A DNA stretch of 64,000 nt from a virus, in IMG/VR virus record IMGVR_UViG_3300025141_012985, positions 20,178 through 84,177 of that record; one strand, written 5' to 3'. The position numbers and the translations under genes were made by a program. The notes under the pieces were generated by a model. That model saw only the letters and a program-made list of their open reading frames with translations. It made no database searches and was not told the DNA's origin. Each line of letters opens with the position of its first letter. The stretch's first letter is position 1. Shown piece after piece: positions 14,772-61,592 of the stretch.

Positions 14772-14788
14772 AGGAATAATATTTTACA

Positions 14789-15391: not shown

Positions 15392-15394
15392 AAG

Positions 15395-16315
15395 ATGGAT
15401 AAAGTATTTTATAACAAGTCATCTGCATCAAATCTAGGCTGGGACCCTAGTTGGTTCGGATGTGAATATTTTGATGACACTCTAACATCAGCTGTCAGAA
15501 AGTGGCAAAAAGAAAATAGACTAACAGCTGACGGCCTGGTGGGTCCGACTACATACAGAAGGATCTGGACTGAGAGAGAGTCAGAGATATCTACATTTAA
15601 GCCATCAAGTAGAAATTTTGATTCCAATAGGTGGATAGTTCACAATGGAAGGTTTATCCCAATTGAATGGAAAAAGGTTGTTCTTTGGGATGAGAACGGA
15701 GGTCTCGATACAAAGAAGGGTAATTATTATGACTACTCTGGAAAGGCAGAAAGAAAGCCTACATTCTTTGTTAATCACTGGGATGTCTGTCTATCTTCAG
15801 AGTCTTGTGCCGGAGTTCTAAAAAGAAGAGGTGCGTCCGTTCACTTTTGCATCGATAACGATGGAACAATTTATCAGCTTTTAGATACACAGCATGCAGC
15901 TTGGCATGCCGGAGGTCAAAAATGGAATCAAAAATCTATTGGTGTGGAGATATCAAATGCATATTATACAAAGTATCAGAGCTGGTATGAAAAAAATGGT
16001 CTGGGACCTAGACCAGTTCTGGAGGATTCATGGACCCATGGGAACAAGCATAAACCTCATCTCGGATTTTATCCAGTACAGATTGAGGCAGCACGAGCAC
16101 TATGGAAGGCAGTCCACATCGGATTCGGAATCCCACTAGAATGTCCGCTAAGGGATGGCCAGATGATGACGGGTGTGTCTTCAGAAGCTGCTAAGGGAAA
16201 ATTTGAAGGATTTATTCATCATTATCATCTCACAAGAAGGAAGATAGATTGCGGAGGATTTGACTTAGAATCCAACCTCCAAATTGTAAGACAGTCACCT
16301 ATGTATTGTTTATAG
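15395..16315 (+). CDS. Endolysin: peptidoglycan-binding domain plus N-acetylmuramoyl-L-alanine amidase (Amidase_2)
   Basis: AVRKWQ...LTADGLVGPTT; SVHFCIDNDGTIYQ, AWHAG, SIGVE, HH...KIDC. Confidence 0.85.
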   Translation: MDKVFYNKSSASNLGWDPSWFGCEYFDDTLTSAVRKWQKENRLTADGLVGPTTYRRIWTERESEISTFKPSSRNFDSNRWIVHNGRFIPIEWKKVVLWDENGGLDTKKGNYYDYSGKAERKPTFFVNHWDVCLSSESCAGVLKRRGASVHFCIDNDGTIYQLLDTQHAAWHAGGQKWNQKSIGVEISNAYYTKYQSWYEKNGLGPRPVLEDSWTHGNKHKPHLGFYPVQIEAARALWKAVHIGFGIPLECPLRDGQMMTGVSSEAAKGKFEGFIHHYHLTRRKIDCGGFDLESNLQIVRQSPMYCL

Positions 16316-30436: not shown

Positions 30437-31390
30437 ATGAGAGATTTAGGATATTTTTTTAATCGTCAGAATAAATTTTCTGATCTTTTCTTTAAAAGTG
30501 AAGACATGACTGAAGCAGAGAGAGAGGAGATGACAAAATCTCTTGCACTTGCTCTTCACGCTGAAGTTTCTGAACTGATAAGCGCAGTTAATTTTAAGGA
30601 CCATAGGCAGCTTAAGAATGCTGCTGATCCTTCAAAGATTCTATATGAATCAGTTGATGTTTTTAGGTACTTATTGGCAATTTTAAATCTTTGGAATATT
30701 GACCCTGGATCAGTCATAGATGCTTTTGATGATAAAGACATGTTTCTTCACATGAGACATCAAATAGAATCTCAATTTTGGGATGGACAACCCGTCCTTG
30801 TGTTTGATATTGATGACGTAATTGCACACTTTAGATCTAACTTTATCGACTGGCTTGAGTCTGAGAAGGGAATAGTTGTCGACAGTAAATCTACAGAGTA
30901 CTACACGACTATAGAAGTTAAAGAAGCTGGGCTGAATCCAGAAGAAGTGTTTGATGACTTTATAGCTGATCGAAATTTAAGACACCTTACATCCGACAGC
31001 GGGGTAGTTGATGTTATAAACTATTTTTATGACAAGGGTTGTTGGATTCAGCTTCTTACTGCAAGACCAGGAGATGTTCTTCAGTGCAAGTATGATACGT
31101 ATAGATGGCTTAGTACACTGGGTATGAAATTTCATAGAGTTGATTTTAGTGCTGAGAAGTACAGGTGGCTAACAAAATCCGAATATTTTGATTCCGGCCA
31201 GATTGTTTGTGCAATTGATGATTCAGCTAAGCACTCTGCTGAATATGCAAAGCATGGAGTCATAACACTTTCTCCAGTTACTTCATACAATAGAGAGCTG
31301 GAAGATGTTGAAGGTGTCATGATGTATTATGGCCCAAGTCAGCTAAAGACCCTTATTGACGCACTTCTAGTAAAGGGAAAATTTATATGA
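30437..31390 (+). CDS. Fusion of an all-alpha NTP pyrophosphatase and a HAD 5'-nucleotidase-like domain
   Basis: N-terminal EVSEL...NFKDH...ESVDVFRY; C-terminal FDIDDV, LTAR, IDD. Confidence 0.75.
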   Translation: MRDLGYFFNRQNKFSDLFFKSEDMTEAEREEMTKSLALALHAEVSELISAVNFKDHRQLKNAADPSKILYESVDVFRYLLAILNLWNIDPGSVIDAFDDKDMFLHMRHQIESQFWDGQPVLVFDIDDVIAHFRSNFIDWLESEKGIVVDSKSTEYYTTIEVKEAGLNPEEVFDDFIADRNLRHLTSDSGVVDVINYFYDKGCWIQLLTARPGDVLQCKYDTYRWLSTLGMKFHRVDFSAEKYRWLTKSEYFDSGQIVCAIDDSAKHSAEYAKHGVITLSPVTSYNRELEDVEGVMMYYGPSQLKTLIDALLVKGKFI

Positions 31391-31448: not shown

Positions 31449-32450
31449 ATGCCCCAGAATCGTGATTTAGACCCAATTGAGCTTCCAATGAAGCTAAAGT
31501 TTGGTCAAGATCCTTCAACTGAATTTTTTAACAATCTTTCAGCTCTAACAGTTGAATTAGTTGACCACCCAACGAGAGAGCAAGCTCGAAATGTTGCATG
31601 GCAGTATGTCAAAGCAACATGGGCTGATCATGCTGATGATACATCACCCTATGTCGACGAGCTTCGACCCACTAGCCAGGATCTTTCAGAAAATCTTGAA
31701 GATGTTCTTTGTTTCAGGGCGCTTCCAACACCCATGGAGTGCTTTGGGTTTACATTTAAGCTTAGCGGGCTTTCTTTTCAGGAGGTCACTCATATTATTA
31801 GACATCGTGCAGGATCTTTTGCAGCACAGTGCACAGGTGATAGAGACCTAAGAGACGATCCTGCTGTCATACCAGAGGCAGTAGAAAATTCACCAGAATT
31901 TTTGAGAAGGTGGAAGCAGATTGTGCTAGACTCTAAGCAGCTCTATTCAGATATGACTGACTCAAAGGCGGTTTCAATGATGGATGCTAGAATGATTCTT
32001 CCAAAGTGTATGACATCTTTTTACTTAATGAGACTTAATCTCAAAGATCTGCTTGGGTTCATTAAGCAAAGACAAGATATTCAGATTCAACCCGCTGCAG
32101 ATAATCTTCTTGCTGCAATGATGGCAAAAGAACTCATTAAGGTTCTCCCCGAAGCTTCTGTGAGAATTGATTTTAACTCTCCAGACATGCACTACATAAA
32201 GACATTTCGAATAAAGCAGGGAGATAGGTGGATTAGTCGAGGAACAAATTTGTACTGGCCTGAGCCCAAGAATGATAGATTTGAATATCATCCAAGTGAC
32301 ACAATCTACCAGTCTCGTAGAGAAAAGATTAATGGAACAAATAGACCTAGCGGTCCAACTAAATTTGAGAAGATATGGAATGATATTATGGATGAAATTT
32401 CTACAATGAAGATTTCATATAAAAATTACATGAATGGAGAATGTACATGA
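31449..32450 (+). CDS. Divergent ThyX-fold flavin-dependent enzyme
   Basis: FTFKLSGLS...RHRAGSFAAQCTGDR...DARMILP...NLKDL...QR. The Ser of RHRx7S is Cys. Confidence 0.8.
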   Translation: MPQNRDLDPIELPMKLKFGQDPSTEFFNNLSALTVELVDHPTREQARNVAWQYVKATWADHADDTSPYVDELRPTSQDLSENLEDVLCFRALPTPMECFGFTFKLSGLSFQEVTHIIRHRAGSFAAQCTGDRDLRDDPAVIPEAVENSPEFLRRWKQIVLDSKQLYSDMTDSKAVSMMDARMILPKCMTSFYLMRLNLKDLLGFIKQRQDIQIQPAADNLLAAMMAKELIKVLPEASVRIDFNSPDMHYIKTFRIKQGDRWISRGTNLYWPEPKNDRFEYHPSDTIYQSRREKINGTNRPSGPTKFEKIWNDIMDEISTMKISYKNYMNGECT

Positions 32451-34248: not shown

Positions 34249-37200
34249 TTGATAGTGTTTAATAAGTTTTCTGTGCCCAAGAGATTCGTAGGTCTTCATG
34301 CACATGATGGTAGTTCTGTATACGATGGTCTTGGATATCCCAATGAACATATCGATTTTGTTCTTGAAAACGGGATGGATGCTTTTGCATTAACAAATCA
34401 CGGACATATGAATTCTTCTGCTCATGCTCACAATTATGCTAAGAAGCTAAAGAATAAGGGCATGGGATATAGGCATATCTACGGATGTGAATGCTATTTC
34501 GTAGATGACCTAGATGAATGGAGAAGCGACTATAATGAGTATCGAGAAAAAGTTAGACAGGAAAAGGTGCTTCAAAAGAAATCAAAGAGTGAGATATCTG
34601 AGGGTGATGAGAGTGAAGGTCTAGTCATTGAGAATGAAGATGAATCAAAGGCAGATCGTGGAACGTACCCATCGTGGAAGAAGCGGTACCATCTTGTAGT
34701 TCTTGCTAAGAACTATAAAGGGCTGCAGAATCTCTTTAGATTGGTCAAGAGATCATACAAGGAAGGGTTCTATAGGTTTCCTCGTATTGATTACAAGATG
34801 CTCAAAGAGCACTCTGAGGGACTTATAGTCTCAACAGCTTGTGTTGGGGGTCGGCCGTCTGGCCATATATTCCAACACTTTGAAGGAAAGAGCTTTAATG
34901 AACTAACTCCTGATCTCGTAGATGACCCAGTCGTTCTCAATCAAATTATGAGAAAGCTTGAGAATATGACAGATAGATTTGTTGATGCTGTAGGCGAGGA
35001 AAATTTCTTTCTTGAAATTCAATTCAATGACCTTGTTGCTCAAAATCTTGCCAATAGGTGCATCATTAATCTTTCTGAAAAGACAGGGATCCCACTTCTT
35101 GCAACAGCTGATTCCCACTACTGTAACCCAGATATGTGGGAAGCAAGAGAGATGTATAGGCTGCTTGGAAGAATGGGGTCTCGTGGAGATGAAATGCCCA
35201 AGATTCCTAAAAAGGAAGATTTAAAGTGTGAGCTCTATCCTAAAAATGCACAGCAGATGTGGGATGAATTTGGAAAGAGTTACGATAAATATGACTTCTA
35301 CAAGGGTAGCGAAGAAGCTGTTCGCGGAGCAATTGAGAAATCTTACGGAATTGCATGGGATATGTGTGAAGAAGTCTGGTTTGACGGATCAGCAAAACTT
35401 CCAAACTTTGGAACGCCTGAGAAATCTGCGTTTGCCCAGCTAGTTGAACAGGTAAAAGAGGGAATGGTTAAAGATGGTCTTCATGAAAAACCTGAGTACG
35501 TCGAACGAGTAAGGGAGGAAATGTCTGTCATCAAGAAGCTAGGGTTTGAGAATTACTTTTTAACACTAACTAAGGTATTTGAAAAGTCACAACATAGAAC
35601 TCTACTCGGGCCAGGTCGAGGATCCGGAGGCGGAAGCCTGGTCAATTATGTCCTTGGGATTACACATATTGATCCAATTCAGTATGGCCTTCTATTTGAG
35701 AGGTTTCTAGGTATTCACAAAGCATCATGGCCTGATATTGACTCTGATGTAGGTGATAGAGATGTTCTTATTGACGTTTCTCGTGAGCTTTTTGGTGAAG
35801 ACTCTGTCATACCTGTTTCTAATTTTAATACTTTGAAGTTAAAATCCCTTATCAAGGATGTCTCTAAGTTCTATGGAATTCCGTTTGATAAGATAAATGC
35901 TCTAACTGGACCACTTGAGAGAGAGGTTATGCCACGAGCCATGGGTGATCATGAAGAAAGGTCTACGTATGTCTTAACACACGAAGACTGTATGAAGTAT
36001 AGTGATCCCTATAAAGAGTTCATGGATGAATATCCAAAGATTGCAGAGCATATTAAGTCCTTATTTATGGAGCCAAGGTCGATCGGTCGACATGCAGGAG
36101 GTGTTCTAGTATGTCCAGATCTTGAGAGCAGCATGCCAGTCATTAAGGTCAGGGGCGAACTTCAAACACCCTGGTCTGAGGGAATGAACTGGAGGCATCT
36201 TGAAGAGAATGGATTTCTCAAGTTTGACTTTCTAGGACTTGCAACGCTTAAGATGGTAGAAGATTCCATCAGACTTATCCTAAGAAATCAGGGAGTAGAA
36301 AATCCTACATTTGATGATATCAATAAATTCTTTGATGAAAATATAAACAGTAGATTTCATAAGATGGATGATCAAAAAGTCTGGGAATATGTTTACCATG
36401 ATGGAAGGTTTGTCCAGGTTTTTCAATTCACAAATACAGGCGCTAGAAACTTCTGTGTTGCAGCAAAGCCCAGGTCAATTGAAGATCTTGCTACAATCAC
36501 TGCAATCTATCGTCCAGGGCCCCTTGCTGCAAACGTTCACAGGAAGTATGTAAGAGCAGGCAAGGATATTGAAAATATCACATATGACCACCCTGTCCTT
36601 GAAGAACTTTTAAGTGAAAGTCGAGGATTTGTCGTCTTCCAGGAGCAGTTTATGCTTATTGCTCAAAATCTTTGCGGATTCGACAAGGGAGCATCAGATA
36701 AGATGAGAAAGACTCTTGTCAAGAAGTCTCTCGATATGAATGAAAAGAAGGCAAAAGAAAGGGCTGACCTAAGAAAGAAATTCATTACAGGCGCTGTTGA
36801 TCTATCTGGAATGGAAGAGGATAAAGCGACTAAGCTTTATGAAACAATCGAGGCATTCTCTGCTTACGGATTCAATAAATCACATGCTGTTGCATACGCC
36901 GTTGATTCGTACTATTCCGCATGGCTTCACACATACTATGAGAAGGAGTGGCTTGCCACATGTCTTCAGACATGGAATGGATCTCCAAAGTTTGCAAAGA
37001 TCATAGCTGAGATTAAGTCGCTAGGGTATAAGATTCTTCAACCAGACATTAACGCCTCTTCAGACGTATGGGTATATAGTGATGAAAGAGAGGGATTTGT
37101 TCCACCGCTTACTGCAATTAAGGGTGTTGGTGACTCTGCTGTTGCTGAGATTATGCAAAATAGACCCTATGATTCTCTTGATGATATTCTGTTTACAGAG

Positions 37201-37839
37201 GATGGAAAGTGGAAGTCTTCCAAGCTGAACAAGACAGCATTTGACTCTCTTTGCAAGGTCGAGGCTTTTGGCAGTGTGTCAGAAATGTCTAGCGGAGAGA
37301 TTCAAAATCATAGACAGCTTCATGATATTATTGTTGGAAACTATGATCAGCTGAAGAAAGGCAGATACGGGATGACAAAAACAGCGCATAAGAAACTGCT
37401 TAAGACACAAGGCTCTGTTGAAGAGTTTGTTCCTAAGTTGATCATTGATAACTACGGATCTTCAGACTGGTCTAGAACGCTTAAGATAGGGTTTAGTGTT
37501 GAGCTAATGTCAGGTGCAGATGAGTCTCTTGTCTTTCCTCCTAAAATAATGGAAAAGATTAAGAAGTCTGAACTTAAGCCGATTACTGCACTCTCTGGAA
37601 AGACAAAGGATGTAGTCTGGTTCTGCATTCAGGAAATTATTGAGAAGAAGACCAAAAATGGAAAGATATTCTACAGAATGAGAGTCTGTGATAATAATTC
37701 TGAAAGCTGCTGGCTCAGAGTGTGGACAAAGTTTAAAGAGGTTCCAGACCCATATACGATATGGATTGCAGAAGTTGCATCAACTGAGTCATGGGGGTGT
37801 AGTACATCTTCCTATAAGATGTGGAAGATTAATGTGTGA
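34249..37839 (+). CDS. dnaE: DNA polymerase III alpha subunit
   Basis: PHP domain (LHAH, TNHG, DSHY), GRGSGGGS, PDIDSD, KFDFLGL, YGFNKSHA. Confidence 0.95.
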   Translation: MIVFNKFSVPKRFVGLHAHDGSSVYDGLGYPNEHIDFVLENGMDAFALTNHGHMNSSAHAHNYAKKLKNKGMGYRHIYGCECYFVDDLDEWRSDYNEYREKVRQEKVLQKKSKSEISEGDESEGLVIENEDESKADRGTYPSWKKRYHLVVLAKNYKGLQNLFRLVKRSYKEGFYRFPRIDYKMLKEHSEGLIVSTACVGGRPSGHIFQHFEGKSFNELTPDLVDDPVVLNQIMRKLENMTDRFVDAVGEENFFLEIQFNDLVAQNLANRCIINLSEKTGIPLLATADSHYCNPDMWEAREMYRLLGRMGSRGDEMPKIPKKEDLKCELYPKNAQQMWDEFGKSYDKYDFYKGSEEAVRGAIEKSYGIAWDMCEEVWFDGSAKLPNFGTPEKSAFAQLVEQVKEGMVKDGLHEKPEYVERVREEMSVIKKLGFENYFLTLTKVFEKSQHRTLLGPGRGSGGGSLVNYVLGITHIDPIQYGLLFERFLGIHKASWPDIDSDVGDRDVLIDVSRELFGEDSVIPVSNFNTLKLKSLIKDVSKFYGIPFDKINALTGPLEREVMPRAMGDHEERSTYVLTHEDCMKYSDPYKEFMDEYPKIAEHIKSLFMEPRSIGRHAGGVLVCPDLESSMPVIKVRGELQTPWSEGMNWRHLEENGFLKFDFLGLATLKMVEDSIRLILRNQGVENPTFDDINKFFDENINSRFHKMDDQKVWEYVYHDGRFVQVFQFTNTGARNFCVAAKPRSIEDLATITAIYRPGPLAANVHRKYVRAGKDIENITYDHPVLEELLSESRGFVVFQEQFMLIAQNLCGFDKGASDKMRKTLVKKSLDMNEKKAKERADLRKKFITGAVDLSGMEEDKATKLYETIEAFSAYGFNKSHAVAYAVDSYYSAWLHTYYEKEWLATCLQTWNGSPKFAKIIAEIKSLGYKILQPDINASSDVWVYSDEREGFVPPLTAIKGVGDSAVAEIMQNRPYDSLDDILFTEDGKWKSSKLNKTAFDSLCKVEAFGSVSEMSSGEIQNHRQLHDIIVGNYDQLKKGRYGMTKTAHKKLLKTQGSVEEFVPKLIIDNYGSSDWSRTLKIGFSVELMSGADESLVFPPKIMEKIKKSELKPITALSGKTKDVVWFCIQEIIEKKTKNGKIFYRMRVCDNNSESCWLRVWTKFKEVPDPYTIWIAEVASTESWGCSTSSYKMWKINV

Positions 37840-37848: not shown

Positions 37849-38757
37849 ATGCTAACGTTTCCAATTAACATGATTTCAATAGAGGGGCCAGACCTTTCTG
37901 GAAAGACAACCCTAATCAATGACATTCACAAGAAGACGAATTATCGGTGGCATCTAATGGATAGGTCAAAGCTTTCTAGAATGGTGTTTGCCAAGATGTA
38001 TGATAGAGACGTTGAACAAACTACAAGAGAGTTCTACGAAGAAGTTAGTAATCTAAACAATAGATGTGTCTTTTTAATGCCCACATTCGAAGTTCTGGAG
38101 GAGAGATACAAAACTCGTGGTGATGAAATTCATACAATTGATACGCTAAGAGAGTCATACAATTTATTTTTTAAAGAATTTACTAGACTCCCATCTTTAT
38201 CAAACGTCTATGGAATTATGAATGGTTCGTCTGGAAGATTAAGTAATATGGTTATTGACTATCACAATTGCATTGAAAAGTATCTAACACTCAAAGAGGT
38301 CTATGGTCAAGTACAAAATTTTGTCAAGCACTTTCCGAACAACGAATGCAATCAGCTAACATTCACGCTTCACGACAGCGGTGAGTTTAAAGAGTCAAAC
38401 ATAGCCTCTATGAGTGAAAAATCAGAAAAAGAATACTATCATAGAATTTATGACTCTTTAATGAATAAAATTGATGATGAACAGTCTGGAAAGAATCCAT
38501 ACTCAAGAAAAGAAGGTTTAGATTCAAGAAGGTATGTCTTTACAGAAGACACATGCATCTCAATGATTCATATTTTGAATAGGGATTCTGTTCTAGATGT
38601 GCGATTTGTTTGTAGATCTACTGATATTAATAATAAGTTTGAACATGATTTAAATTTCTTATACTTTATAGCTTCAGAGTGCTGGAATTTGCTTGGTGGT
38701 GGATGTAATTTTTGCAAAATGCATTTCACCTTAAACTCTGCACACATTCTTGAGTAA
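37849..38757 (+). CDS. Fusion of a dNMP kinase and a truncated thymidylate-synthase-fold domain (dCMP-type Asp)
   Basis: EGPDLSGKTT and DRS kinase motifs; C-terminal SRR...TCIS...RSTDINNKFEHD...SAH. Confidence 0.75.
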   Translation: MLTFPINMISIEGPDLSGKTTLINDIHKKTNYRWHLMDRSKLSRMVFAKMYDRDVEQTTREFYEEVSNLNNRCVFLMPTFEVLEERYKTRGDEIHTIDTLRESYNLFFKEFTRLPSLSNVYGIMNGSSGRLSNMVIDYHNCIEKYLTLKEVYGQVQNFVKHFPNNECNQLTFTLHDSGEFKESNIASMSEKSEKEYYHRIYDSLMNKIDDEQSGKNPYSRKEGLDSRRYVFTEDTCISMIHILNRDSVLDVRFVCRSTDINNKFEHDLNFLYFIASECWNLLGGGCNFCKMHFTLNSAHILE

Positions 38758-38776: not shown

Positions 38777-39781
38777 ATGGAAAAGAGAGCTTTAGTTACG
38801 GGTGGGTGTGGATTCATCGGTTCAAATCTGACAAGAGAGCTTATTAAGCAGGGCTGGATGGTCGACATTGTAGATGACATGTCGAATGGTCACCTGGAGC
38901 TTCTAGAGGGATTAAATTTTAGAGTCATTCCCAGTTCAGAGTTTCTTATTGAGTTTAATAAGCAGTCTGGAAGGGGAAGGGAAACAGTTGTCGTTATTCA
39001 AGATGACTTTGCATCTCCGGGAATATCATATCAGATATCTAAAAAGATGTATGATGTTGTGTTCCACCAAGCTGCGATCCCTAGAGTTTTATTTTCTGTT
39101 GAAAATCCTGCAATGACAACAGATACAAATATTGGATCAACAGTTAAATTATTTGAAGCCTGCATCGGAAATGTTAAAAGAATTGTCTGGGCTTCATCCT
39201 CTTCAGTGTACGGAGGTGCTGATTTGATGCCTACTTCTGAGGATCATCCGAAGGATCCTAAATCTCCATACGCCTGGCAGAAATCTTCAATAGAAGATCT
39301 GTCTAGAGTTTTTTGCAATCTCTACAATATTGATATTGTATGCTTAAGATATTTTAACGTTTTTGGTCCAGGACAGTACGGAGATTCTCCCTATTCCACT
39401 GCAGTTTCTGCATGGTGCAATGCCATCTTAGAGGGAACACCCTTGAGAAGTGACGGTGACGGAACACAGTCAAGAGATCTTTGCTACATTGACAATGTCG
39501 TTCAGGCAAATATTTTAGCTGCAAATCGTGACGAAAGCTTTGAGGGACAATATTATAATATTGCGTGCGGAGATCGAACGACAAATAATCAAATTCTTAA
39601 TTTCTTTAAAGATAGATTTTCTAATGTTGAAGTAGTCAATGCACCGTGGAGACCTGGAGATGTCATGCACACACAGGCTGATATTACAAGAGCTAGGGAG
39701 GATTTTGGATACGAACCTGTTGTGAGAATTTGGGAAGGACTAGAAAAAACGGTCGAGTGGTGGGATCTAAAGGATGAGTAA
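38777..39781 (+). CDS. NAD-dependent nucleotide-sugar epimerase/dehydratase
   Basis: TGGCGFIG, SSSSVYG, YAWQK, LRYFNVFGP. Confidence 0.9.
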   Translation: MEKRALVTGGCGFIGSNLTRELIKQGWMVDIVDDMSNGHLELLEGLNFRVIPSSEFLIEFNKQSGRGRETVVVIQDDFASPGISYQISKKMYDVVFHQAAIPRVLFSVENPAMTTDTNIGSTVKLFEACIGNVKRIVWASSSSVYGGADLMPTSEDHPKDPKSPYAWQKSSIEDLSRVFCNLYNIDIVCLRYFNVFGPGQYGDSPYSTAVSAWCNAILEGTPLRSDGDGTQSRDLCYIDNVVQANILAANRDESFEGQYYNIACGDRTTNNQILNFFKDRFSNVEVVNAPWRPGDVMHTQADITRAREDFGYEPVVRIWEGLEKTVEWWDLKDE

Positions 39782-40784: not shown

Positions 40785-41774
40785 ATGATTGAACCAACCA
40801 GCGTGAATTGTGTAATCTATCATGCAAATTGTACAGACGGATTTGGTGCTGCTTATTCTGCCTGGAAGCTGCTAGGCAATCGTGCTGAGTACCATGCATG
40901 TAAGCACGGAACTCCTCCCCCAGATATAAAAGATAAAAATGTCGTAATTTTAGATTTTTCCTTCGATAACACAACTACTAAAAAAATGATTGAAGAGGCT
41001 AATGCGCTTCTAGTCATAGATCATCATAAGTCAGCCATGGTAGAGCTTCATGATATATCAAATACAGTTTTTGATATGACGAAATCTGGTGCAATGCTTT
41101 CATGGGAATTTTTTCATCTAGGAAAAGAGCCGCCAAAATTCATCAAGTATATTCAAGATCGCGATCTTTGGAAATGGGAGCTTGACTATTCTAAAGAGTT
41201 TAGCGCAGCATTTGATATGGTGCCATTTGAATTTGAGGAATTTGAAAAGTTTGAAGATGACTCTGTATTTGATGATGCTGTAAAGCGCGGATCCTATATA
41301 CTTGCATACAGCAAGACAGTTATTAAAAAGGTGTGTGAAAAGGCAGTTGAGAGAAGATATAAAGGAATGAAAGTCATGGTGGTTAATTCTTCTCACTGGA
41401 TGTCTGAGATTGGTGCTAGGTTGGCACCAGACTGTGACTTTGCAGTTATATGGTACTATGATCATGAAGACAGAATTAACAAGATAAGTTTGCGTGCTTT
41501 TCATGACGCAGTTGATGTTTCTGAAATTGCAAAGGGCTTCGGCGGTGGCGGGCATAAGAAGGCAGGTGGCTTTCAAATAAGCGGCGAGCTCTGTGTTGAT
41601 GATATTTTTGATCCCGAGGTAGAGGATGAACATGAAGACCCAGTTGATACTTCTGCTGCAAGGGAAGAGCTTAAAAAGATTCAAAGTGCGCTTGATGAGG
41701 AGTGTGATAAAGAGGCAGTTGCAAAGGTTGAAGAGATCTTAGACAAGATTGAATCTTCCAAGGATGAGGAATAA
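40785..41774 (+). CDS. DHH/DHHA1 phosphoesterase (NrnB-like)
   Basis: YHANCTDG, DHHKS, DRDLW, GGGGHKKAGG. Confidence 0.88.
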   Translation: MIEPTSVNCVIYHANCTDGFGAAYSAWKLLGNRAEYHACKHGTPPPDIKDKNVVILDFSFDNTTTKKMIEEANALLVIDHHKSAMVELHDISNTVFDMTKSGAMLSWEFFHLGKEPPKFIKYIQDRDLWKWELDYSKEFSAAFDMVPFEFEEFEKFEDDSVFDDAVKRGSYILAYSKTVIKKVCEKAVERRYKGMKVMVVNSSHWMSEIGARLAPDCDFAVIWYYDHEDRINKISLRAFHDAVDVSEIAKGFGGGGHKKAGGFQISGELCVDDIFDPEVEDEHEDPVDTSAAREELKKIQSALDEECDKEAVAKVEEILDKIESSKDEE

Positions 41775-42505
41775 TGTCGTATTTGGGATTTACTAGATCA
41801 ATCTGTAGATACTATCTCTCACAGATAGATTTTCCAAAAGTTTTAGAAATAGGTGTAGACAAGGGCCAGACAGCTATCCCATTAATTCAAAACTTATGCA
41901 CTACAAAAAGACAATTTATGTATGCTGGAATAGATGTTCTCTTATCAAGAGACCTCATCGAGCAGATTGGTCAATTTGAAAATATGTCAGTTAGCTGGCA
42001 TGATGATCTGACAGACAGAGTTGTAATGATGTTTGAAGAAAATAGCCTAGACTGGCTGGGAAATAATCAAGACAGCTCACTAAAGTTTGATTTAATCCTT
42101 ATTGACGGAGATCACAATTATTATACTGTGTTCAATGAATTAAATCTCATTCAGGCAATAATAAAGCCGACTACACTTATAGTTTGTGATGATTTCCAGG
42201 GAAGATACAGTGAAAAAGATATGTTTTACTCAGAGAGAGAAGAATATAAAGATGTGCCTGATATGACACCTCGTAAAATTACTAAAAAAAGCGGAATTAG
42301 AAGTGCTGTTATTGACTTTAGAGATCAGTCTCCCCTAAGCTGGAGAGTGGACACATTCGGACCATCTGATCCGTGTTTTCTCTATCAAGAAGATTTTTTA
42401 GAAGCGTGGGCTGATCCGCCAGAGAATACACTGTTACGAGATATGAAAATATCTTTCTCCTTTAAGGGTGAGAAACAGTCTGAATCTTCTAGGGATGAAG
42501 AATAA
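41774..42505 (+). CDS. Class I SAM-dependent methyltransferase (Methyltransf_24-like), copy 1
   Basis: LEIGVDKG, IDGDHNY, VCDD. Confidence 0.75.
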   Translation: MSYLGFTRSICRYYLSQIDFPKVLEIGVDKGQTAIPLIQNLCTTKRQFMYAGIDVLLSRDLIEQIGQFENMSVSWHDDLTDRVVMMFEENSLDWLGNNQDSSLKFDLILIDGDHNYYTVFNELNLIQAIIKPTTLIVCDDFQGRYSEKDMFYSEREEYKDVPDMTPRKITKKSGIRSAVIDFRDQSPLSWRVDTFGPSDPCFLYQEDFLEAWADPPENTLLRDMKISFSFKGEKQSESSRDEE

Positions 42506-43224
42506 TGTCATATTTAGGATTTACCAGATGTATCAGCAGATATTATTTGTCACAGATAGACTTTCCAAAGATATTGGAGATTGGTATTGACAAGGGACAG
42601 ACTGCAATTCCGCTAATTCAAAATCTCTGTATTTCAAAGTCTACATTTATGTATGCAGGCATAGACATTCTTTTAAGAAACGAGCTCCTAGAGCAAATAT
42701 CTCAATTTGAAGGAATTACAGCTAGCTGGCTTGATGAGCTTGATGATAGGGCTGTCATGATGTTTGAAGAAAATAGCCTAGACTGGCTGGAAAATAATCA
42801 AGATGCTGATATAGAATTTGATCTTGTTCTTGTCGATGGAGATCATAATTATCATACAGTGTTCAATGAGCTTAAGCTCATTGAGTCTTTGATAAAACCT
42901 GCTACACTTATAGTTTGTGATGACTATCAAGGGAGATACAGTGAAAAAGATATGTTCTATTCAGAGAGAGAAGAGTATAAGGACGTAGAGGGAGCTACTC
43001 ACAGAGTTGATTCAAAAAAGCAGGGTGTTAGAAACGCAGTTATTGACTATACCAATCAATCGAAATTTGAGTGGAGGGTCGATAGATTTGGACCTTCTGA
43101 GCCTTGCTTTTTGTATCAGCCAGAATTTCTAAAAGTTAATGCAAAGCCTGCAAAGTGTGCTAGACTTAGGGATATGGAAGCTGATTTTATTTTCAACCCT
43201 GAAGAGAAATTTTTAGTCCGATGA
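42505..43224 (+). CDS. Class I SAM-dependent methyltransferase (Methyltransf_24-like), copy 2
   Basis: Tandem paralogue of copy 1 with the same motifs. Confidence 0.75.
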   Translation: MSYLGFTRCISRYYLSQIDFPKILEIGIDKGQTAIPLIQNLCISKSTFMYAGIDILLRNELLEQISQFEGITASWLDELDDRAVMMFEENSLDWLENNQDADIEFDLVLVDGDHNYHTVFNELKLIESLIKPATLIVCDDYQGRYSEKDMFYSEREEYKDVEGATHRVDSKKQGVRNAVIDYTNQSKFEWRVDRFGPSEPCFLYQPEFLKVNAKPAKCARLRDMEADFIFNPEEKFLVR

Positions 43225-58306: not shown

Positions 58307-58498
58307 ATGAGTATTGAAAAGATTCTACCAGATTCTGACATAAAGAATCTAAGATCACAAGGAATTCTTGAAGACTGTGAAGTTGCAATTCAAGTTGGAG
58401 ATATAGTAATTGCTGAAAATGTTCTTACTAAATCTAGAAGGGTTTTAGATTCTAGCTTAGTCTTATCTGAATCAAATAGAAAAATTCTAAAGGGATGA
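58307..58498 (+). CDS. Hypothetical protein
   Basis: Coupled to groEL by an ATGA overlap. Confidence 0.55.
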   Translation: MSIEKILPDSDIKNLRSQGILEDCEVAIQVGDIVIAENVLTKSRRVLDSSLVLSESNRKILKG

Positions 58499-60111
58499 GC
58501 ATGATTCGAACTAATAAGATTATTAAGTTTGATACTGTAGCTAGGGAGAGACTCTTAGAGGGTGTTAATATTTTAGCAAATGCCGTTAAGATAACTATGG
58601 GACCTAGAGGCCAGAATGTGATTATTGAACAGCAGTCTGGATCACCAACTCTAACTAAGGATGGTGTGACTGTTGCAAAGGCTGTGAACTTAAAAGATCA
58701 GTTTAATAATCTTGGAGTTCAAATTATCAAAGAGGCTGCGTCTAGAACTGCAGATGTCGCAGGAGATGGAACTACAACTGCTACTGTCCTGTCTCAGTCT
58801 ATATTTTCTGAGGGTGTAAAAATGCTTGCTGCTGGATTTCAATCGTCTGAGTTAAAAGCAGGAATTGAAACGGCTGTTCATGATGTCATACAGAGCTTGA
58901 GAGACATGTCAGTAGAGGTTACCTCTGACCTAGAGATAGAAAATGTAGGAACTATTTCTGCTAATGGAGAAAGTGAAATAGGAGAGCTCTTAGTCAAGGC
59001 AATTAACTCTGTCGGGAGAGATGGTGTTATTACGGTTGAAGAGGCAAAGGGATTTAATACAACACTGACGACAGTAGAGGGAATGAAAATAGAGAGAGGA
59101 TATCTTTCTCCCTATTTTATAAACAATCAAGATAAAATGATGTGTGAGATTAAAAATCCCCTAATCTTGCTTTCAAATAGTAAGATTTCAAATCTCAAAG
59201 ATATTATGAAAATTTTAGAAGAAGTCTTAGATTCAGGAAGGCCGTTATTTGTAATTGCTGATGATGTAGACGGCGATGCTATGCAGGGTCTTGTAGTTAA
59301 TCACATTAAGGGGACACTTCAGTCGTGTGCAATCCGAGCACCTGGATTTGGAGAAAACAGAGTTGCTATGCTTCAAGATCTTTCAATTCTATTAGATTGT
59401 GATATTATTTCTGAATCAACAGGAGTTTCGTTTAAAGATGCTTCAATAGAGAATCTTGGAACATGCAAGAGAATTGTTTGTGGAAAATCTGATACTGTAT
59501 TCATAGGGTGTTCAGGAGAGTCTGAAAAAATTAAGGATAGAGTCTTATCAATAAGAGAAAGACTGAAAGATAGGCTTATTGAAGATGCTGAAGTGTCTCT
59601 CTTAAAGGATAGATTATCCAAGCTTTCAGGCGGTGTTGCAATACTTAGAGTCGGCGGTGCTACAGAAATAGAACTTGGTGAAAGAAAAGATAGAGTCGAT
59701 GATGCTCTTCACGCAACGCAAGCCGCAATTGAAGAAGGAATCTTGCCTGGAGGTGGAGTTGCGCTTGTAAGGGCATCACAGTCACTTGATAAAAGATCAA
59801 ATGATAAGATGACAGGAGTCGATGCAGGAATTCAAATAGTTAGAAAGGCTTGCTGTGAACCTCTCCGCCAGATAGTGATAAACTCAGGAGGAACACCAGA
59901 TGTTGTTCTTGATAGAGTGATGTCTTTAGATTCTAGGCATGGGTACAATGCTTTCACAAATGAATATGGAGATATGATGTCTATGGGAATTATAGATCCA
60001 CTAAAGGTTGTTAGAACTGCTTTGGAAAATGCTTCATCTGCTGCTTCAATGATGCTTACTGTTGGATGTACAATGATTGAAGAAGAAATAGAGAGTTCTC
60101 AATCATTTTAG
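58495..60111 (+). CDS. groEL: Chaperonin GroEL
   Basis: TKDGVTVA, GDGTTT, GYLSPYF, GGG, GIIDP; lacks the GGM tail. Confidence 0.95.
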   Translation: MSMIRTNKIIKFDTVARERLLEGVNILANAVKITMGPRGQNVIIEQQSGSPTLTKDGVTVAKAVNLKDQFNNLGVQIIKEAASRTADVAGDGTTTATVLSQSIFSEGVKMLAAGFQSSELKAGIETAVHDVIQSLRDMSVEVTSDLEIENVGTISANGESEIGELLVKAINSVGRDGVITVEEAKGFNTTLTTVEGMKIERGYLSPYFINNQDKMMCEIKNPLILLSNSKISNLKDIMKILEEVLDSGRPLFVIADDVDGDAMQGLVVNHIKGTLQSCAIRAPGFGENRVAMLQDLSILLDCDIISESTGVSFKDASIENLGTCKRIVCGKSDTVFIGCSGESEKIKDRVLSIRERLKDRLIEDAEVSLLKDRLSKLSGGVAILRVGGATEIELGERKDRVDDALHATQAAIEEGILPGGGVALVRASQSLDKRSNDKMTGVDAGIQIVRKACCEPLRQIVINSGGTPDVVLDRVMSLDSRHGYNAFTNEYGDMMSMGIIDPLKVVRTALENASSAASMMLTVGCTMIEEEIESSQSF

Positions 60112-60155
60112 AAGTAATGGATTCTGTATGATAATTATTCATACAGGATTTTTCT

Positions 60156-60539
60156 ATGAAAAATACAGAGAAAGAACTTAGAAGTCTAGTTGGAAGTCTT
60201 TGCGAGGCAGACTTTAGGCTCAAAATTGCACTTTCAAAGACTACCCTTAGACTAATAATCCATCCAGATGGACATGTTCCAGATACTCTAACTAGAATTA
60301 GAGTCCTGGAGGGTGTATCTGTAGTCGGCCAGGGAGATAAAGTTGTTAGAAGCACACGTGGCGGAAATTCTATTTTATTAGTTTACGTTAAGTTCTTACC
60401 ACAAGATGGTTTGACAAATTATGACAACATATATAAATTGTGTAAAAATATCAAAAAGCTACCGGGTGTAGAGATTGTTAAAGTTATGACTGTCAACAAT
60501 AAAAAGGTTGTTCACAAGGGAAGACCGATTGTCGTCTAA
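60156..60539 (+). CDS. Hypothetical late protein
   Basis: ATAATTA at 60131; EKELRSLVGSLCE. Confidence 0.5.
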   Translation: MKNTEKELRSLVGSLCEADFRLKIALSKTTLRLIIHPDGHVPDTLTRIRVLEGVSVVGQGDKVVRSTRGGNSILLVYVKFLPQDGLTNYDNIYKLCKNIKKLPGVEIVKVMTVNNKKVVHKGRPIVV

Positions 60540-60607
60540 TTAAAAGTCTCAACCTGTCTATTATTTATTATTGTTCCCGTTCTTACTAGATTTTTTTGGA
60601 GGTTAGT

Positions 60608-60943
60608 ATGTCTAATTCTGGAAGCGAGTGGAGTCAAAAGCTCCAAGATTCTTTAACAGAGATTAAAATTTCATCAGCAAATGTTGAAGCAAGACTTGAT
60701 CAGCTTATGATTGGGATGCAGAAGCTAGAGACCTCTCTAGAAGAAATGAAGAATATTACTTCAAACCAGGAAACAAGACTTCAGCTTCTTGAAGCTCATT
60801 GTTCAAGAATACCAAATGCCCTTGGAGAAGACTTTGCCATCATGAAGTCACAGCTATCTTCATATAGAAGGGCTAGCTGGATGGTCGCTTCGGTTGTAGT
60901 TGGACTTGTTATTAAGACGTTCTTTGATATGGCAATACAGTGA
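60608..60943 (+). CDS. Coiled-coil protein with C-terminal TM helix
   Basis: ATG at 60608 after GGAGG (track 60596). Confidence 0.55.
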   Translation: MSNSGSEWSQKLQDSLTEIKISSANVEARLDQLMIGMQKLETSLEEMKNITSNQETRLQLLEAHCSRIPNALGEDFAIMKSQLSSYRRASWMVASVVVGLVIKTFFDMAIQ

Positions 60944-61146
60944 AAGTAATAGTCACTCACCTGAGAGATAATGATATAACATATTTTAACCATATGAAGA
61001 GAGCAGTAAAGTGGTCTGCAAGTCTTGCAATTACCAGTGTAGCACTTTCCATTCATGCATTTCTTCCCTTTGTCTTTACAAAAACGGCATCATCTGCAGT
61101 CAATAAAATAAACAAAGAAATGAATGTCAAAATAAATAAAAAATAA
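60940..61146 (+). CDS. DUF6356-like small protein
   Basis: HL...TYFNHM..A...IHAFLPFVF..TAS. Confidence 0.55.
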   Translation: MKVIVTHLRDNDITYFNHMKRAVKWSASLAITSVALSIHAFLPFVFTKTASSAVNKINKEMNVKINKK

Positions 61147-61157
61147 ACTGACATACG

Positions 61158-61185
61158 TGTAAAGAGCATAATGAAGTGTTATAAT
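61158..61185 (+). promoter_or_regulatory. Class A promoter TGTAAA-N16-TATAAT (extended TGn)
   Basis: Followed by the hairpin GGGTTA-AGCAAA-TAACCC at 61193-61210. Confidence 0.6.
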
Positions 61186-61263
61186 AGTTAATGGGTTAAG
61201 CAAATAACCCAAGGCAATCTTAATCAATCTTAATCAATCAAACTAATTCAAATAACGGAGAAA

Positions 61264-61491: not shown

Positions 61492-61546
61492 TCAGGAAAA
61501 AAGAAATAAAGCCTTTTCTTTTTTTCATACATGATTAATTTTATAT

Positions 61547-61564
61547 TGACAGATATATCTGTCA
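61547..61564. promoter_or_regulatory. Perfect 18-bp palindrome TGACAGATATATCTGTCA (putative operator)
   Basis: Self-complementary; overlaps TTGACA; 28 nt before the sigma ATG. Confidence 0.6.
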
Positions 61565-61592
61565 TCAACCATATTACTAATTTAGAAATTAA

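What the first reader, a model, noticed from the sequence alone, without database searches (positions are those of the whole stretch)
37849..38757. NMP kinase fused to a minimal thymidylate-synthase fold with the dCMP-specifying Asp
Seen: SRR-x7-C...RSTD-INNKFEH-D...SAH. Known: TS has RSxD-x7-N (Asn177, dUMP) whereas T4 dCMP hydroxymethylase has RSND-x7-D (dCMP). The Cys nucleophile is present, but the RR-to-Cys loop is very short and the N-terminal folate-binding part appears to be missing. Inference: a folate-independent dCMP-acting domain (or a partner of the ThyX-like flavoenzyme) that channels its product to the fused kinase; alternatively a nucleotide-sensing domain.
Basis: partly seen in the sequence, partly recalled or inferred. 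Interest (0 to 1): 0.75.

Follow-up and report, generated by a model that had tools for sequence, protein, structure and literature searches.

The report
Phage kinase fused to mini thymidylate-synthase
An uncultured large marine phage encodes, right after its DNA polymerase gene, one protein that joins a small nucleotide kinase to a stripped-down thymidylate-synthase-type domain with a cytosine-type active site, so it probably makes an altered cytosine nucleotide for its DNA, by chemistry that is still unknown.

Summary
The ORF at 37849-38757 (+, 302 aa) reads SRR-x7-C ... RSTD-x7-D ... SAH exactly. Residues 1-147 are a YorR/dTMP-kinase-like P-loop kinase. Residues 148-302 are a 155-aa minimal thymidylate-synthase (TS) fold. 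In a search of 48,161 solved chains the only 7 with Z >= 8 are TS-family enzymes. The best is AfhB, the flavin-dependent dCMP 5-hydroxylase of phage HY126 (Z 11.6). Profile comparison also links the domain to phage dCMP-acting TS homologues (E 4e-9).

The Cys, the Asp and the phosphate-binding residues are kept in 180-186 of 189 homologues. The domain was found only fused to the kinase (64 of 64 loci). It sits directly after dnaE in 79 of 79 loci.

It lacks the RR-to-Cys loop, the C-terminal lid and, less certainly, the cofactor wall. It is therefore not an ordinary folate- or flavin-site enzyme.

My best reading (0.5) is a dCMP C5-modifying domain that feeds the fused kinase. The electrophile is unknown. 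The main rival is a non-catalytic nucleotide-binding domain.

New here: one complete genome has dismantled the TS-type site and kept the kinase. The sugar epimerase link is not obligate.

This scan found the same family before on other DNA.

The parts
37849..38757 (+). Whole gene, 302 aa plus stop: kinase fused to a mini-TS domain
   Evidence: ORF list. 163 homologues of about 300 aa at E <= 0.001. 257 representatives at 50% identity. Full-length AF2 model pLDDT 95.0, pTM 0.91.
37849..38289 (+). Residues 1-147: P-loop nucleotide kinase domain of YorR / dTMP-kinase type
   Evidence: hmmsearch of profile A1 against the PDB: YorR 2axp, E 5.8e-7. VIA-align: 3kb2 YorR Z 12.9, rmsd 2.8, 138 aligned; dTMP kinase 2plr Z 11.9; deoxyadenosine kinase 2jaq Z 11.8. 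PHROG 761 thymidylate kinase, E 1e-7. No Pfam family reaches its cut-off.
37885..37908 (+). P-loop GPDLSGKT (G13-T20)
   Evidence: In 189 homologues: G13 185, D15 186, G18 187, K19 187, T/S20 184.
38290..38754 (+). Residues 148-302: minimal thymidylate-synthase-fold domain (155 aa)
   Evidence: AF2 domain model pLDDT 97.4. Foldseek top hit 9iqu, E 1.1e-7, TMq 0.64. VIA wide: 9iqc_A Z 11.6, 139 aligned; 7 TS-family chains at Z 8.8-11.6, the next chain at 5.4. hhalign against the gp48 family: Prob 96, E 4.2e-9.
38524..38532 (+). S226-R227-R228, equivalent of the TS DSRR phosphate-binding arginines (R126/R127 of E. coli ThyA)
   Evidence: Aligned to SRR of the RB69 gp48 family and of T4 gp42. R227 in 183 and R228 in 180 of 189. 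Translation checked.
38554..38556 (+). Cys236, equivalent of the TS catalytic nucleophile (C146 of E. coli ThyA; C148 of T4 gp42; C163 of RB69 gp48)
   Evidence: Aligned Cys to Cys. Kept in 182 of 189 homologues and in 79 of 80 window-plus-locus sequences.
38614..38625 (+). R256-S257-T258-D259, equivalent of TS R166-S167-x-D169
   Evidence: Aligned to MRSQN of gp48 and MRSND of T4 gp42. R256 183, S257 184 of 189. Position 259 is D 105, N 73, other 11 of 189.
38647..38649 (+). Asp267, at the base-specificity position (N177 of ThyA; D179 of T4 dCMP hydroxymethylase; D194 of RB69 gp48)
   Evidence: Aligned. Kept in 186 of 189 and 80 of 80. The role of this position is stated in PMC13326640, section 24.
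38737..38745 (+). S297-A298-H299; the His is the equivalent of TS H207; the protein ends 3 residues later
   Evidence: Aligned to VSAHV of gp48. H299 in 181 of 189.
34249..37839 (+). dnaE (Pol III alpha), directly upstream; conserved neighbour
   Evidence: A homologue lies within 10 kb in 79 of 79 loci, median offset -2.6 kb. Its stop is 10 nt before the start of the fusion gene.
38777..39781 (+). Nucleotide-sugar epimerase/dehydratase (SDR), directly downstream; frequent but not obligate neighbour
   Evidence: Pfam Epimerase, E 3.4e-45. Best NCBIfam match TviC, far below its cut-off. Present in 65 of 79 loci. Absent from the divergent clade L071 and L073-L078, which still keeps the active site.

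Best explanation
The gene encodes a bifunctional enzyme for supplying a modified pyrimidine nucleotide.

Proposed action of the C-terminal domain. This 155-aa domain is a cut-down member of the thymidylate-synthase superfamily, from the phage branch that acts on dCMP.
- It binds dCMP. Asp267 reads the cytosine. Arg256/Ser257, and Arg227/Arg228 (by analogy from a second subunit), hold the phosphate. His299 holds the 3'-OH.
- Cys236 adds to C6, which makes C5 a nucleophile.
- The loop between RR and Cys, the C-terminal lid and probably the wall that holds folate or flavin in its relatives are all missing. The C5 face is therefore open.
- The group added at C5 must then come from a small electrophile, a loosely held cofactor or a partner protein. 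I cannot say which.

Proposed action of the N-terminal domain. The 5-substituted dCMP is phosphorylated to the diphosphate by the fused YorR-like kinase. It then reaches the phage's own DnaE replicase.

Shown: fold, register of the active-site residues, their conservation, the obligate fusion, and the position after dnaE.

Inferred: substrate, covalent catalysis, product, hand-over to the kinase, and that the virion DNA carries a modified cytosine.
For: Fold.
- Only TS-family chains reach Z >= 8 (7 of 48,161). The best is the dCMP 5-hydroxylase AfhB, 9iqc_A: Z 11.6, rmsd 2.9, 139 of 155 residues aligned.
- Foldseek agrees.

Sequence.
- The C-domain profile against the 5hodCMP-synthase family gives Prob 96, E 4.2e-9.
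- Against single sequences: T4 gp42 E 1.6e-6, RB69 gp48 E 4.2e-6, RB69 ThyA only 8.2e-4. The domain is therefore nearer to the dCMP-acting branch.

Site conservation in 189 homologues.
- C236 182, D267 186, R227 183, R228 180, R256 183, S257 184, H299 181, E193 184, Y197 181.
- Kinase residues are kept as well: K19 187, D38 184, R39 188, R90 183.

A natural loss of the site.
- In L078 (a complete genome with terminal repeats), 6 of 11 site residues are changed at once, while 13 of 13 kinase residues stay (T20S counted as kept).
- This is the pattern expected if the 11 residues form one functional site.

Fusion and position.
- A search with a TS-domain-only pattern found 64 loci. All 64 have a P-loop upstream in the same frame.
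- dnaE lies upstream in 79 of 79 loci.

Precedent.
- In RB69, DLP3 and RL38JI the 5hodCMP synthase gene lies beside a YorR/dTMP-kinase-like 'nucleotide kinase' gene.
- Clear incorporation of 5hodC into DNA needed co-expression of the TS homologue with the phages' separate T4 gp1-type dNMP kinases (PMC13326640, sections 24 and 25, read).

Context in the window.
- MazG-like and all-alpha NTP pyrophosphatases, dCMP deaminase, thymidine kinase, a ThyX paralogue and an NDT-fold protein.

Other dNMP-supply genes in relatives.
- No ThyA in 0 of 19 large related records.
- No dTMP kinase over the Pfam cut-off in 0 of 5.
Against: - No chemistry has been measured for any member.
- The domain fails Pfam PF00303 outright (not listed at E <= 10; no match in the record).
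- It lacks a 16-aa loop and, by a low-confidence extension of the alignment, a block of about 41 aa. In 5hodCMP synthases that block holds a long run of invariant residues (F75 to T114 of gp48). The known cofactor sites are thus probably gone.
- The position that Lee et al. call diagnostic (D169N for hydroxylases) is mixed here: D 105, N 73, other 11 of 189. This fits neither known chemistry cleanly.
- L078 shows that the kinase and the fold can persist without the site. The domain therefore also has, or can have, a non-catalytic role.
- No DNA glycosyltransferase or other downstream modification gene is consistently linked. Glycos_transf_1 is in 2 of 5 large records. The epimerase is in 65 of 79 loci and is absent from a clade that keeps the site.
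- The window's record is only about 25% complete.
Confidence: 0.5

Rival explanations
1. The TS-fold domain is not an enzyme. It is a dCMP (or other pyrimidine nucleotide) binding module. It either regulates the fused kinase, presents the substrate to it, or makes it oligomeric. The kinase is the only catalytic part, and the phage DNA need not be modified.
For: - The parts that build the cofactor site in all characterised relatives are missing.
- The domain does not reach Pfam PF00303.
- In L078 the site is dismantled, yet the domain stays 59% identical to its nearest relative and the kinase is intact. The fold thus has value without the site.
- No dTMP kinase over the cut-off was found in 0 of 5 large records. 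The kinase could simply be the phage's general dNMP kinase.
Against: - A binding module needs the phosphate and base contacts but not the nucleophile. Yet C236 is kept in 182 of 189, and E193 (184) and Y197 (181) are kept as strictly as the binding residues.
- E193 and Y197 map, with low confidence, to the catalytic Glu58 and Tyr94 positions of TS.
- In L078 the Cys is lost together with the binding residues rather than alone.
Confidence: 0.22
2. It is a true orthologue in function of AfhB / RB69 gp48: a flavin- and O2-dependent dCMP 5-hydroxylase. Its 5-hydroxy-dCMP is phosphorylated by the fused kinase and later glycosylated on DNA.
For: - AfhB is the best structural match.
- Like AfhB and gp48, the protein ends a few residues after the SAH motif and so lacks the TS C-terminal lid.
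- Asn at the D169 position occurs in 73 of 189.
- An acidic or polar residue lies near the L143 position: C-3 is D 85, E 14 of 189.
- A nucleotide-sugar epimerase is the next gene in 65 of 79 loci.
- A loosely bound flavin is reported for gp48 (PMC13326640, section 24).
Against: - The window's own protein and 105 of 189 homologues have Asp, not the diagnostic Asn.
- The block that is invariant in the hydroxylase family (F75 to T114 of gp48) has no counterpart here (low-confidence part of the alignment).
- The domain is 155 aa, against 217-238 aa.
- Glycos_transf_1 is in only 2 of 5 large records.
- The epimerase is absent from a clade that keeps the site.
Confidence: 0.13
3. It performs cofactor-free Cys-C6 chemistry on a pyrimidine nucleotide. 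Possibilities are hydrolytic deamination of dCMP through the 5,6-dihydro adduct, or removal or exchange of a C5 substituent during salvage of nucleotides from degraded host DNA, before re-phosphorylation by the kinase.
For: - An open C5 face and an intact nucleophile would suffice for such reactions. TS is known to catalyse folate-independent 5-H exchange and dehalogenation (recalled from the TS literature, not from a call).
- The gene sits in a salvage-rich module with thymidine kinase, a DHH phosphoesterase and an NDT-fold protein.
Against: - A zinc dCMP deaminase is already encoded nearby in 65 of 79 loci, which makes a second deaminase redundant.
- No precedent for a dedicated enzyme of this kind was found.
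Confidence: 0.1

Closest known systems
Flavin/O2-dependent dCMP 5-hydroxylases (5-hydroxy-dCMP synthases) of the TS superfamily: AfhB of E. coli phage HY126 (PDB 9iqu, 9iqc), RB69 gp48, DLP3 gp80
   Same: - Best structural match: Z 11.6, 139 of 155 residues aligned, 19% identity.
- Profile match E 4.2e-9.
- Cys, SRR, RS, the dCMP-type Asp, the Arg after the Cys strand (R245 = R172 of gp48) and SAH are in register.
- Both end just after SAH, with no TS C-terminal lid.
- In those phages a YorR/dTMP-kinase-like kinase gene lies next to the synthase gene (PMC13326640, section 25).
   Different: - 155 aa against 217-238 aa.
- 16-aa deletion between RR and Cys.
- Probably lacks the roughly 41-aa block that is invariant in that family.
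- The diagnostic Asn (D169N) is Asp in this protein and in 105 of 189 relatives.
- Fused to the kinase instead of encoded beside it.
- Does not reach Pfam PF00303, whereas gp48 relatives do.
T4 gp42 dCMP hydroxymethylase (PDB 1b49, 1b5d, 6a9a, 6l18)
   Same: - RS-x-D-x7-D signature with Asp at both positions, as in the window's protein.
- hmmsearch E 0.07 with Cys, RS and D in register.
- hhalign E 1.6e-6.
- Z 8.8.
- T4 pairs it functionally with a dNMP kinase (gp1), as recalled in PMC13326640, section 24.
   Different: - T4 gp42 is 246 aa.
- It binds methylene-tetrahydrofolate. The segments that would do so are missing here.
- It is not fused to a kinase.
Thymidylate synthase ThyA (Pfam PF00303), e.g. 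E. coli ThyA, RB69 td
   Same: - Same core fold (Z 9.7-10.8 to three bacterial ThyA chains).
- Same Cys, RR, RS and His positions.
   Different: - Asn177 is Asp.
- Sequence relation is much weaker (E 8.2e-4, Prob 24).
- No folate-binding wall, no C-terminal lid.
- No Pfam hit.
MilA, CMP 5-hydroxymethylase of mildiomycin biosynthesis (PDB 5jnh, 5b6d)
   Same: - TS fold with a cytosine-type Asp.
- TMq 0.65 and Z 10.0.
   Different: 318 aa, folate-dependent, acts on the ribonucleotide, bacterial secondary metabolism, no kinase.
YorR of the B. subtilis SPbeta prophage (PDB 2axp, 3kb2) and dTMP kinases
   Same: - The N-terminal domain matches YorR: E 5.8e-7; Z 12.9, 138 aligned.
- P-loop, DR motif and RGD-type lid arginines are conserved.
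   Different: - No Pfam kinase family reaches its cut-off.
- YorR's own substrate is not established, to my knowledge (recalled).
- YorR has no TS domain.

Membership tests
Thymidylate synthase superfamily (fold level) | TS alpha/beta fold with the central sheet and helix J | tested here: met
   The domain model (pLDDT 97.4) aligns over 134-142 of 155 residues to 7 TS-family chains at Z 8.8-11.6. The next chain scores Z 5.4. Foldseek probability is 1.00 to AfhB, MilA, TS and T4 dCH.
Thymidylate synthase superfamily (fold level) | Catalytic Cys on the strand after the RR strand, R-S on the next strand, His near the end of the last core strand | tested here: met
   C236, R227/R228, R256/S257 and H299 align in register to gp48 and T4 gp42. 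They are kept in 180-184 of 189.
Pfam PF00303 Thymidylat_synt (sequence family) | Score over the gathering cut-off of 24.3 bits | tested here: not met
   PF00303 is not listed even at E <= 10. There is no match in the whole 84-kb record. Among 19 related large records there is one faint match of 12.6 bits.
dCMP-acting TS homologues (T4 gp42 / AfhB / gp48 branch) | Asp in place of Asn177 | tested here: met
   D267 aligns to D179 of T4 gp42 and D194 of gp48. It is kept in 186 of 189.
dCMP-acting TS homologues (T4 gp42 / AfhB / gp48 branch) | Acidic residue at the L143 position (three before the Cys) | tested here: inconclusive
   The window has E233. The family has D 85, S 30, Q 26, N 17, E 14, G 10 of 189. 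The position is mostly polar or acidic, not fixed.
5-hydroxy-dCMP synthases (flavin-dependent hydroxylases) | Asn at the D169 position (D169N), proposed as diagnostic in PMC13326640, section 28 | tested here: not met
   The window's protein has D259. The family is split: D 105, N 73, other 11 of 189.
5-hydroxy-dCMP synthases (flavin-dependent hydroxylases) | The family's invariant block between the Glu58-type helix and the Tyr94-type motif (F75 to T114 of gp48) | tested here: inconclusive
   The block is invariant in 21 family members. hhalign places a gap of about 41 residues there, but only in the low-confidence extension of the alignment (mact 0.05 and 0). I could not see that this block binds flavin, because He et al. 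2026 is not held.
5-hydroxy-dCMP synthases (flavin-dependent hydroxylases) | Flavin binding and O2-dependent hydroxylation | not testable with these tools
   Needs protein chemistry.
Folate-dependent dCMP hydroxymethylase (T4 gp42 type) | Methylene-tetrahydrofolate site, including the C-terminal segment | tested here: not met
   The protein ends 3 residues after H299. The structural alignment ends at residue 219 of 246 in T4 dCH and at about 210 of ThyA. There is a 16-aa loop deletion.
TS-type obligate homodimer | Dimer through the central sheet, so that RR reaches the partner's site | not tested
   No usable result was obtained (see Tried and rejected). RR conservation is only indirect.
NMP/dNMP kinase (P-loop, dTMP-kinase-like) | P-loop, DR motif, lid arginines, kinase fold | tested here: met
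   GPDLSGKT, D38-R39 and R86/R90-G-D are kept in 181-188 of 189. Z is 11-13 to YorR, dTMP kinases and deoxyadenosine kinase. Whether the acceptor is a monophosphate or a nucleoside is not resolved.
Pfam kinase families (PF02223 Thymidylate_kin, PF01712 dNK) | Score over the cut-off of 27 bits | tested here: not met
   12.3 and 17 bits. TIGR00041 scores 18.7 bits against a cut-off of 83.

The most novel reading that the evidence does not exclude
A cofactor-site-less TS-fold enzyme, widespread in uncultured marine giant phages, uses Cys-C6 activation of dCMP to install a C5 group by a route not yet known for this superfamily. The route could be a free small electrophile, or hand-over from a separate flavoprotein such as the co-resident rewired ThyX paralogue. 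The domain passes the product directly to a fused kinase. These phages would then carry a cytosine modification, or a way of making one, that has not been described.
Probability: 0.25. Interest if true: 0.85.

Novelty: new variant of a known kind. Interest (0 to 1): 0.62.

Why it matters
TS homologues are the entry point of almost every known pyrimidine hypermodification in phage DNA. In 2025-2026 the family was shown to include flavin-dependent hydroxylases.

This protein is a still more reduced form. It keeps the nucleophile and the cytosine-reading residues, drops the known cofactor sites, and is welded to a kinase. It defines a family of at least 257 clusters at 50% identity in large marine phages, always next to the replicase gene.

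If it is active, it marks either a new chemistry for the TS fold or a minimal scaffold for C5 activation. It would also predict modified cytosine in an abundant, uncultured group of ocean phages. That bears on restriction evasion, on sequencing bias in viromes and on enzyme engineering.

If it is inactive, it is a clear case of an enzyme fold recruited as a nucleotide-binding module.

Tried and rejected
- Homodimer test. Complex prediction with two copies of the C-domain (alignment A2) gave 'no answer': runs 0.33, 0.43 and 0.21 against a mark of 0.42. I draw nothing from it.

I used the search for related loci and my own ORF clustering instead.

- GenBank phages. tblastn of the whole protein against 50,697 records found no match at E <= 1e-5. 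DnaE has only matches under 30% identity. No cultured relative was found.

- Stand-alone mini-TS proteins.
  - The C-domain alone against proteins of 85-272 aa found one fragment.
  - The short hits look like truncated copies of the same fusion.
  - The ESM Atlas lists viral clusters of 183-222 aa in which 18-52% of members carry PF00303 (score 0.92-0.93). BFVD lists a few TS-like proteins of 151-174 aa at weak E. I could not fetch or test these.

- Link to DNA glycosylation.
  - The epimerase is absent from the clade L071, L073-L078 and from the records G018, G019, G020 and G023. G021 has only a marginal match (E 3.5e-4) and G022 a distant SDR (28% identity). Five of six sequences I checked in that clade (L073, L075, L077 explicitly) keep the site.
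  - Glycos_transf_1 is in only 2 of 5 large records.
  - I first read the lack of the epimerase and of the PPase-HAD gene in G019 as co-loss with the active site. I dropped that reading when the whole clade proved to lack them.

- D/N/E at position 259 against neighbouring genes. There is no association beyond small lineage-specific ORFs.

- Evidence of base modification or expression from reads. The look-up of sequencing runs listed 24 marine DNA runs, all kept as contigs. No RNA holder is listed and no raw or nanopore reads.

- Cellular genomes. One full-length homologue lies on a 26-kb contig of a Methanobacteriota MAG. Six other hits cover only the kinase N-terminus.

- Literature.
  - Five searches found no description of this fusion.
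  - He et al. 2026 (Nat Chem Biol, AfhB) is not held. I know it only through PMC13326640.
  - I did not ask for supplementary files. Supplementary Figs S5-S8 of PMC13326640 (kinase and flavin data) may bear on the comparison.
Full report
WHAT IS THERE.

The finding's coordinates hold one ORF, 37849..38757 on the + strand, 302 aa. It starts 10 nt after the stop of a 1196-aa dnaE gene, and a GAGG lies 7 nt before the ATG.
- S226-R227-R228, seven residues, C236.
- R256-S257-T258-D259, seven residues, D267.
- S297-A298-H299, three residues before the end.

The recalled comparison is also correct in sequences fetched here. T4 gp42 reads RSND-x7-D and RB69 ThyA reads RSVD-x7-N.

TWO DOMAINS.

No Pfam family reaches its cut-off. 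Only weak P-loop and kinase families appear, and PF00303 is not listed even at E <= 10. A full-length AlphaFold2 model built on 37 homologues is confident (pLDDT 95.0, pTM 0.91).

Residues 1-147 are a small P-loop kinase.
- A family profile finds the SPbeta prophage protein YorR (E 5.8e-7).
- VIA-align gives YorR Z 12.9 (138 residues aligned). dTMP kinases and a deoxyadenosine kinase follow at Z 11-12.

Residues 148-302 were folded alone (pLDDT 97.4) and match only the thymidylate-synthase superfamily.
- Of 48,161 representative chains, 7 reach Z >= 8 and all are TS-family. They are AfhB 9iqc_A (11.6), three bacterial ThyA chains (9.7-10.8), MilA (10.0), a plant DHFR-TS (9.7) and T4 dCMP hydroxymethylase (8.8). 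The next chain scores 5.4.
- Foldseek on the PDB and on BFVD agrees.

SEQUENCE-LEVEL KINSHIP.

I fetched RB69 gp48, a proven 5-hydroxy-dCMP synthase (PMC13326640, section 24 read). I collected its family and aligned 21 members (A3).
- hhalign of the whole-protein family A1 against A3 gives Prob 91.4, E 8.9e-7.
- A C-domain-only profile of 189 sequences gives Prob 96.0, E 4.2e-9.
- In the confident part, SRR, Cys, the Arg after the Cys strand (R245 = R172), RS, the specificity Asp and SAH are in register. There is a 16-residue deletion between RR and Cys.
- Against single sequences the same profile scores T4 gp42 E 1.6e-6, RB69 gp48 E 4.2e-6 and RB69 ThyA E 8.2e-4. The domain therefore belongs with the phage dCMP-acting branch. 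The scores do not say whether it is nearer the hydroxymethylase or the hydroxylase type.

WHAT IS MISSING.

The structural alignments span the whole TS core from helix A to the strand with His207: model 1-155 to AfhB 15-227, and to ThyA about 0-210. The N-terminal part is therefore present. The losses are three:
(i) The RR-to-Cys loop (confident).
(ii) The C-terminal 50-odd residues of ThyA. AfhB and gp48 lack these too.
(iii) An internal block.

With hhalign's threshold relaxed, the alignment pairs E166 with the invariant E43 of gp48. It pairs E193 with the Glu58-type position, and Y196-Y197-x-x-I200 with F115-Y116-G-P-R-I120 (the Tyr94 motif). That leaves about 41 gp48 residues unmatched. 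This part is low confidence.

In the gp48 family the unmatched block is almost entirely invariant (F75 to T114). In ThyA the corresponding region carries the folate-contacting Trp80 and Trp83; that is my recollection, though W80 is named in PMC13326640, section 28. I could not check which residues hold the flavin in AfhB, because He et al. 2026 is not held.

CONSERVATION.

The family is large. There are 163 hits at E <= 0.001 among 493 candidates. There are 257 representatives at 50% identity, 143 of them at E <= 1e-10.

In 189 members of 270-340 aa (of 263 collected; shorter ones were dropped as fragments):
- TS-type site: C236 182, D267 186, R227 183, R228 180, R256 183, S257 184, H299 181, E193 184, Y197 181, R245 182, E166 173.
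- Kinase: G13 185, D15 186, K19 187, D38 184, R39 188, R53 186, R86 187, R90 183, D92 183.
- The position equivalent to ThyA D169 is D 105, N 73, other 11. Lee et al. found it to be Asn in all tested 5-hydroxy-dCMP synthases (section 28). The window's protein has Asp.

ALWAYS FUSED, ALWAYS AFTER dnaE.

The search for related loci with the whole protein gave 79 IMG/VR loci.
- A dnaE homologue lies directly upstream in 79 of 79.
- Downstream or nearby come a nucleotide-sugar epimerase (65), thymidine kinase (62), a DHH phosphoesterase (54), dCMP deaminase (65) and a SOD-like gene (58).
- Upstream, where the flank reaches, lie a ThyX paralogue (37), an NDT-fold gene (40) and NTP pyrophosphatases (22-23) (Pfam and PHROG names).
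- A second search used only a TS-domain pattern (RR..C). It gave 64 loci, and all 64 have a P-loop upstream in the same open frame.
- I found no stand-alone copy.

WHOLE-RECORD CHECKS.

The window's record is an 84-kb fragment, about 25% complete by CheckV. I therefore searched 19 related records of 100-284 kb.
- All 19 carry the divergent ThyX paralogue of about 330 aa. Ten also carry a canonical ThyX, including both records that are at least 90% complete.
- None has a ThyA (0 of 19 over the cut-off).
- In the five largest, no dTMP kinase reaches the Pfam cut-off (0 of 5). Glycos_transf_1 genes occur in 2 of 5.

A NATURAL EXPERIMENT.

One locus, L078, lies in a complete 239.5-kb genome with terminal repeats. 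Its protein has 6 of 11 TS-site residues replaced (E193R, R227K, C236N, R256T, S257Q, H299F). All 13 kinase residues are kept (T20S counted as kept). The C-domain remains 59% identical to its nearest relative, L077, which has the Cys and all other site residues but Y197F.

This says three things. The site residues stand or fall together. The kinase does not need them. The fold has some value without them.

That genome keeps the ThyX paralogue and the NDT gene, so those do not depend on a live TS-type site. It lacks the epimerase and the PPase-HAD fusion. So do its relatives that have an intact site, so I draw no pathway link from that.

HOW IT MOST LIKELY WORKS.

The best-supported reading is a two-step nucleotide factory, like T4 gp42 plus gp1 or RB69 gp48 plus its kinases, but in one chain.
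- The TS-type domain binds dCMP and activates C5 through Cys236.
- The fused kinase makes the diphosphate.
- The phage's DnaE uses the triphosphate.

The precedent is close. In RB69, DLP3 and RL38JI a YorR/dTMP-kinase-like gene lies beside the synthase gene. Clear incorporation of 5-hydroxy-dC into DNA needed the synthase together with the phages' separate T4 gp1-type dNMP kinases (PMC13326640, sections 24 and 25).

What cannot be inferred is the group added. The known folate and flavin sites appear to be gone, and position 259 is mixed. I give this reading 0.5. The specific '5-hydroxylase like AfhB' version gets 0.13. A non-catalytic binding or regulatory domain gets 0.22. Cofactor-free chemistry gets 0.1.

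NOVELTY AND STANDING.

Five literature searches found no description of the fusion. GenBank phages hold no homologue.

Earlier follow-ups of this scan reached the same core conclusion on other genomes, so this is a repeat discovery within the scan.
- The TS-pattern-first proof that the domain is always fused.
- The mixed D/N/E at the diagnostic position.
- The mapping of the deletions onto the hydroxylase family's invariant block.
- The natural active-site loss in a complete genome.
- The finding that the epimerase link is not obligate.

I class it as a new variant of a known kind and score interest at 0.62.

Noticed in passing
L078:10001-10789 (IMGVR_UViG_3300033183_000491, 239,550 bp, direct terminal repeats): This homologue of the fusion protein has 6 of 11 TS-site residues replaced, including Cys to Asn, while the kinase residues are intact. 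It is a natural loss of the TS-type site in a complete genome.
   Followed up: yes
L074, L076, L077, L078, upstream of the fusion gene: In this divergent clade dnaE appears as two to four separate ORFs, interrupted by ORFs of about 300-340 aa. These may be inteins, homing endonucleases or a split polymerase.
   Followed up: no
window 31449-32450 and related records: A divergent ThyX paralogue of about 330 aa (60-80 bits to PF02511) is present in 19 of 19 large related records. Ten also have a canonical ThyX of about 230-267 aa. None has ThyA.
   Followed up: partly
L148 (PBHZ01000014.1, MAG labelled Methanobacteriota archaeon, 26-kb contig): This is the only full-length homologue in 185,579 species genomes (33% identity, residues 9-301). 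It is probably a viral contig binned with an archaeal MAG.
   Followed up: no
L017:11972-13006 and 22 other loci, about 2 kb downstream of the fusion gene: A GMP reductase/IMPDH-family gene (PF00478, E 6e-96) sits in the same module in 23 of 79 loci. It is absent from the window.
   Followed up: no
window 30437-31390: A 317-aa protein combines an all-alpha NTP pyrophosphatase part (dUTPase_2 at 22.5 bits, just under the cut-off) with a HAD/polynucleotide-kinase-phosphatase-like part (PHROGs 415, 420, 1238). It is full-length in 3 of the 5 largest related records.
   Followed up: partly
window 3377-16315 and 58495-62327: The record also encodes a PolA-like fragment, a gp32-like SSB, RecA, a 5'-3' exonuclease, DnaB, a ribonucleotide reductase, GroEL, DnaJ and a sigma-70 factor. 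A related locus (L005) has DnaK/Hsp70. This is a large phage with an unusually cell-like replication and chaperone set. Its DnaE is under 30% identical to any GenBank phage.
   Followed up: no
window 41774-43224: Two tandem Methyltransf_24 genes lie between the DHH gene and the dCMP deaminase gene. They are found in only 3 of 79 related loci.
   Followed up: no
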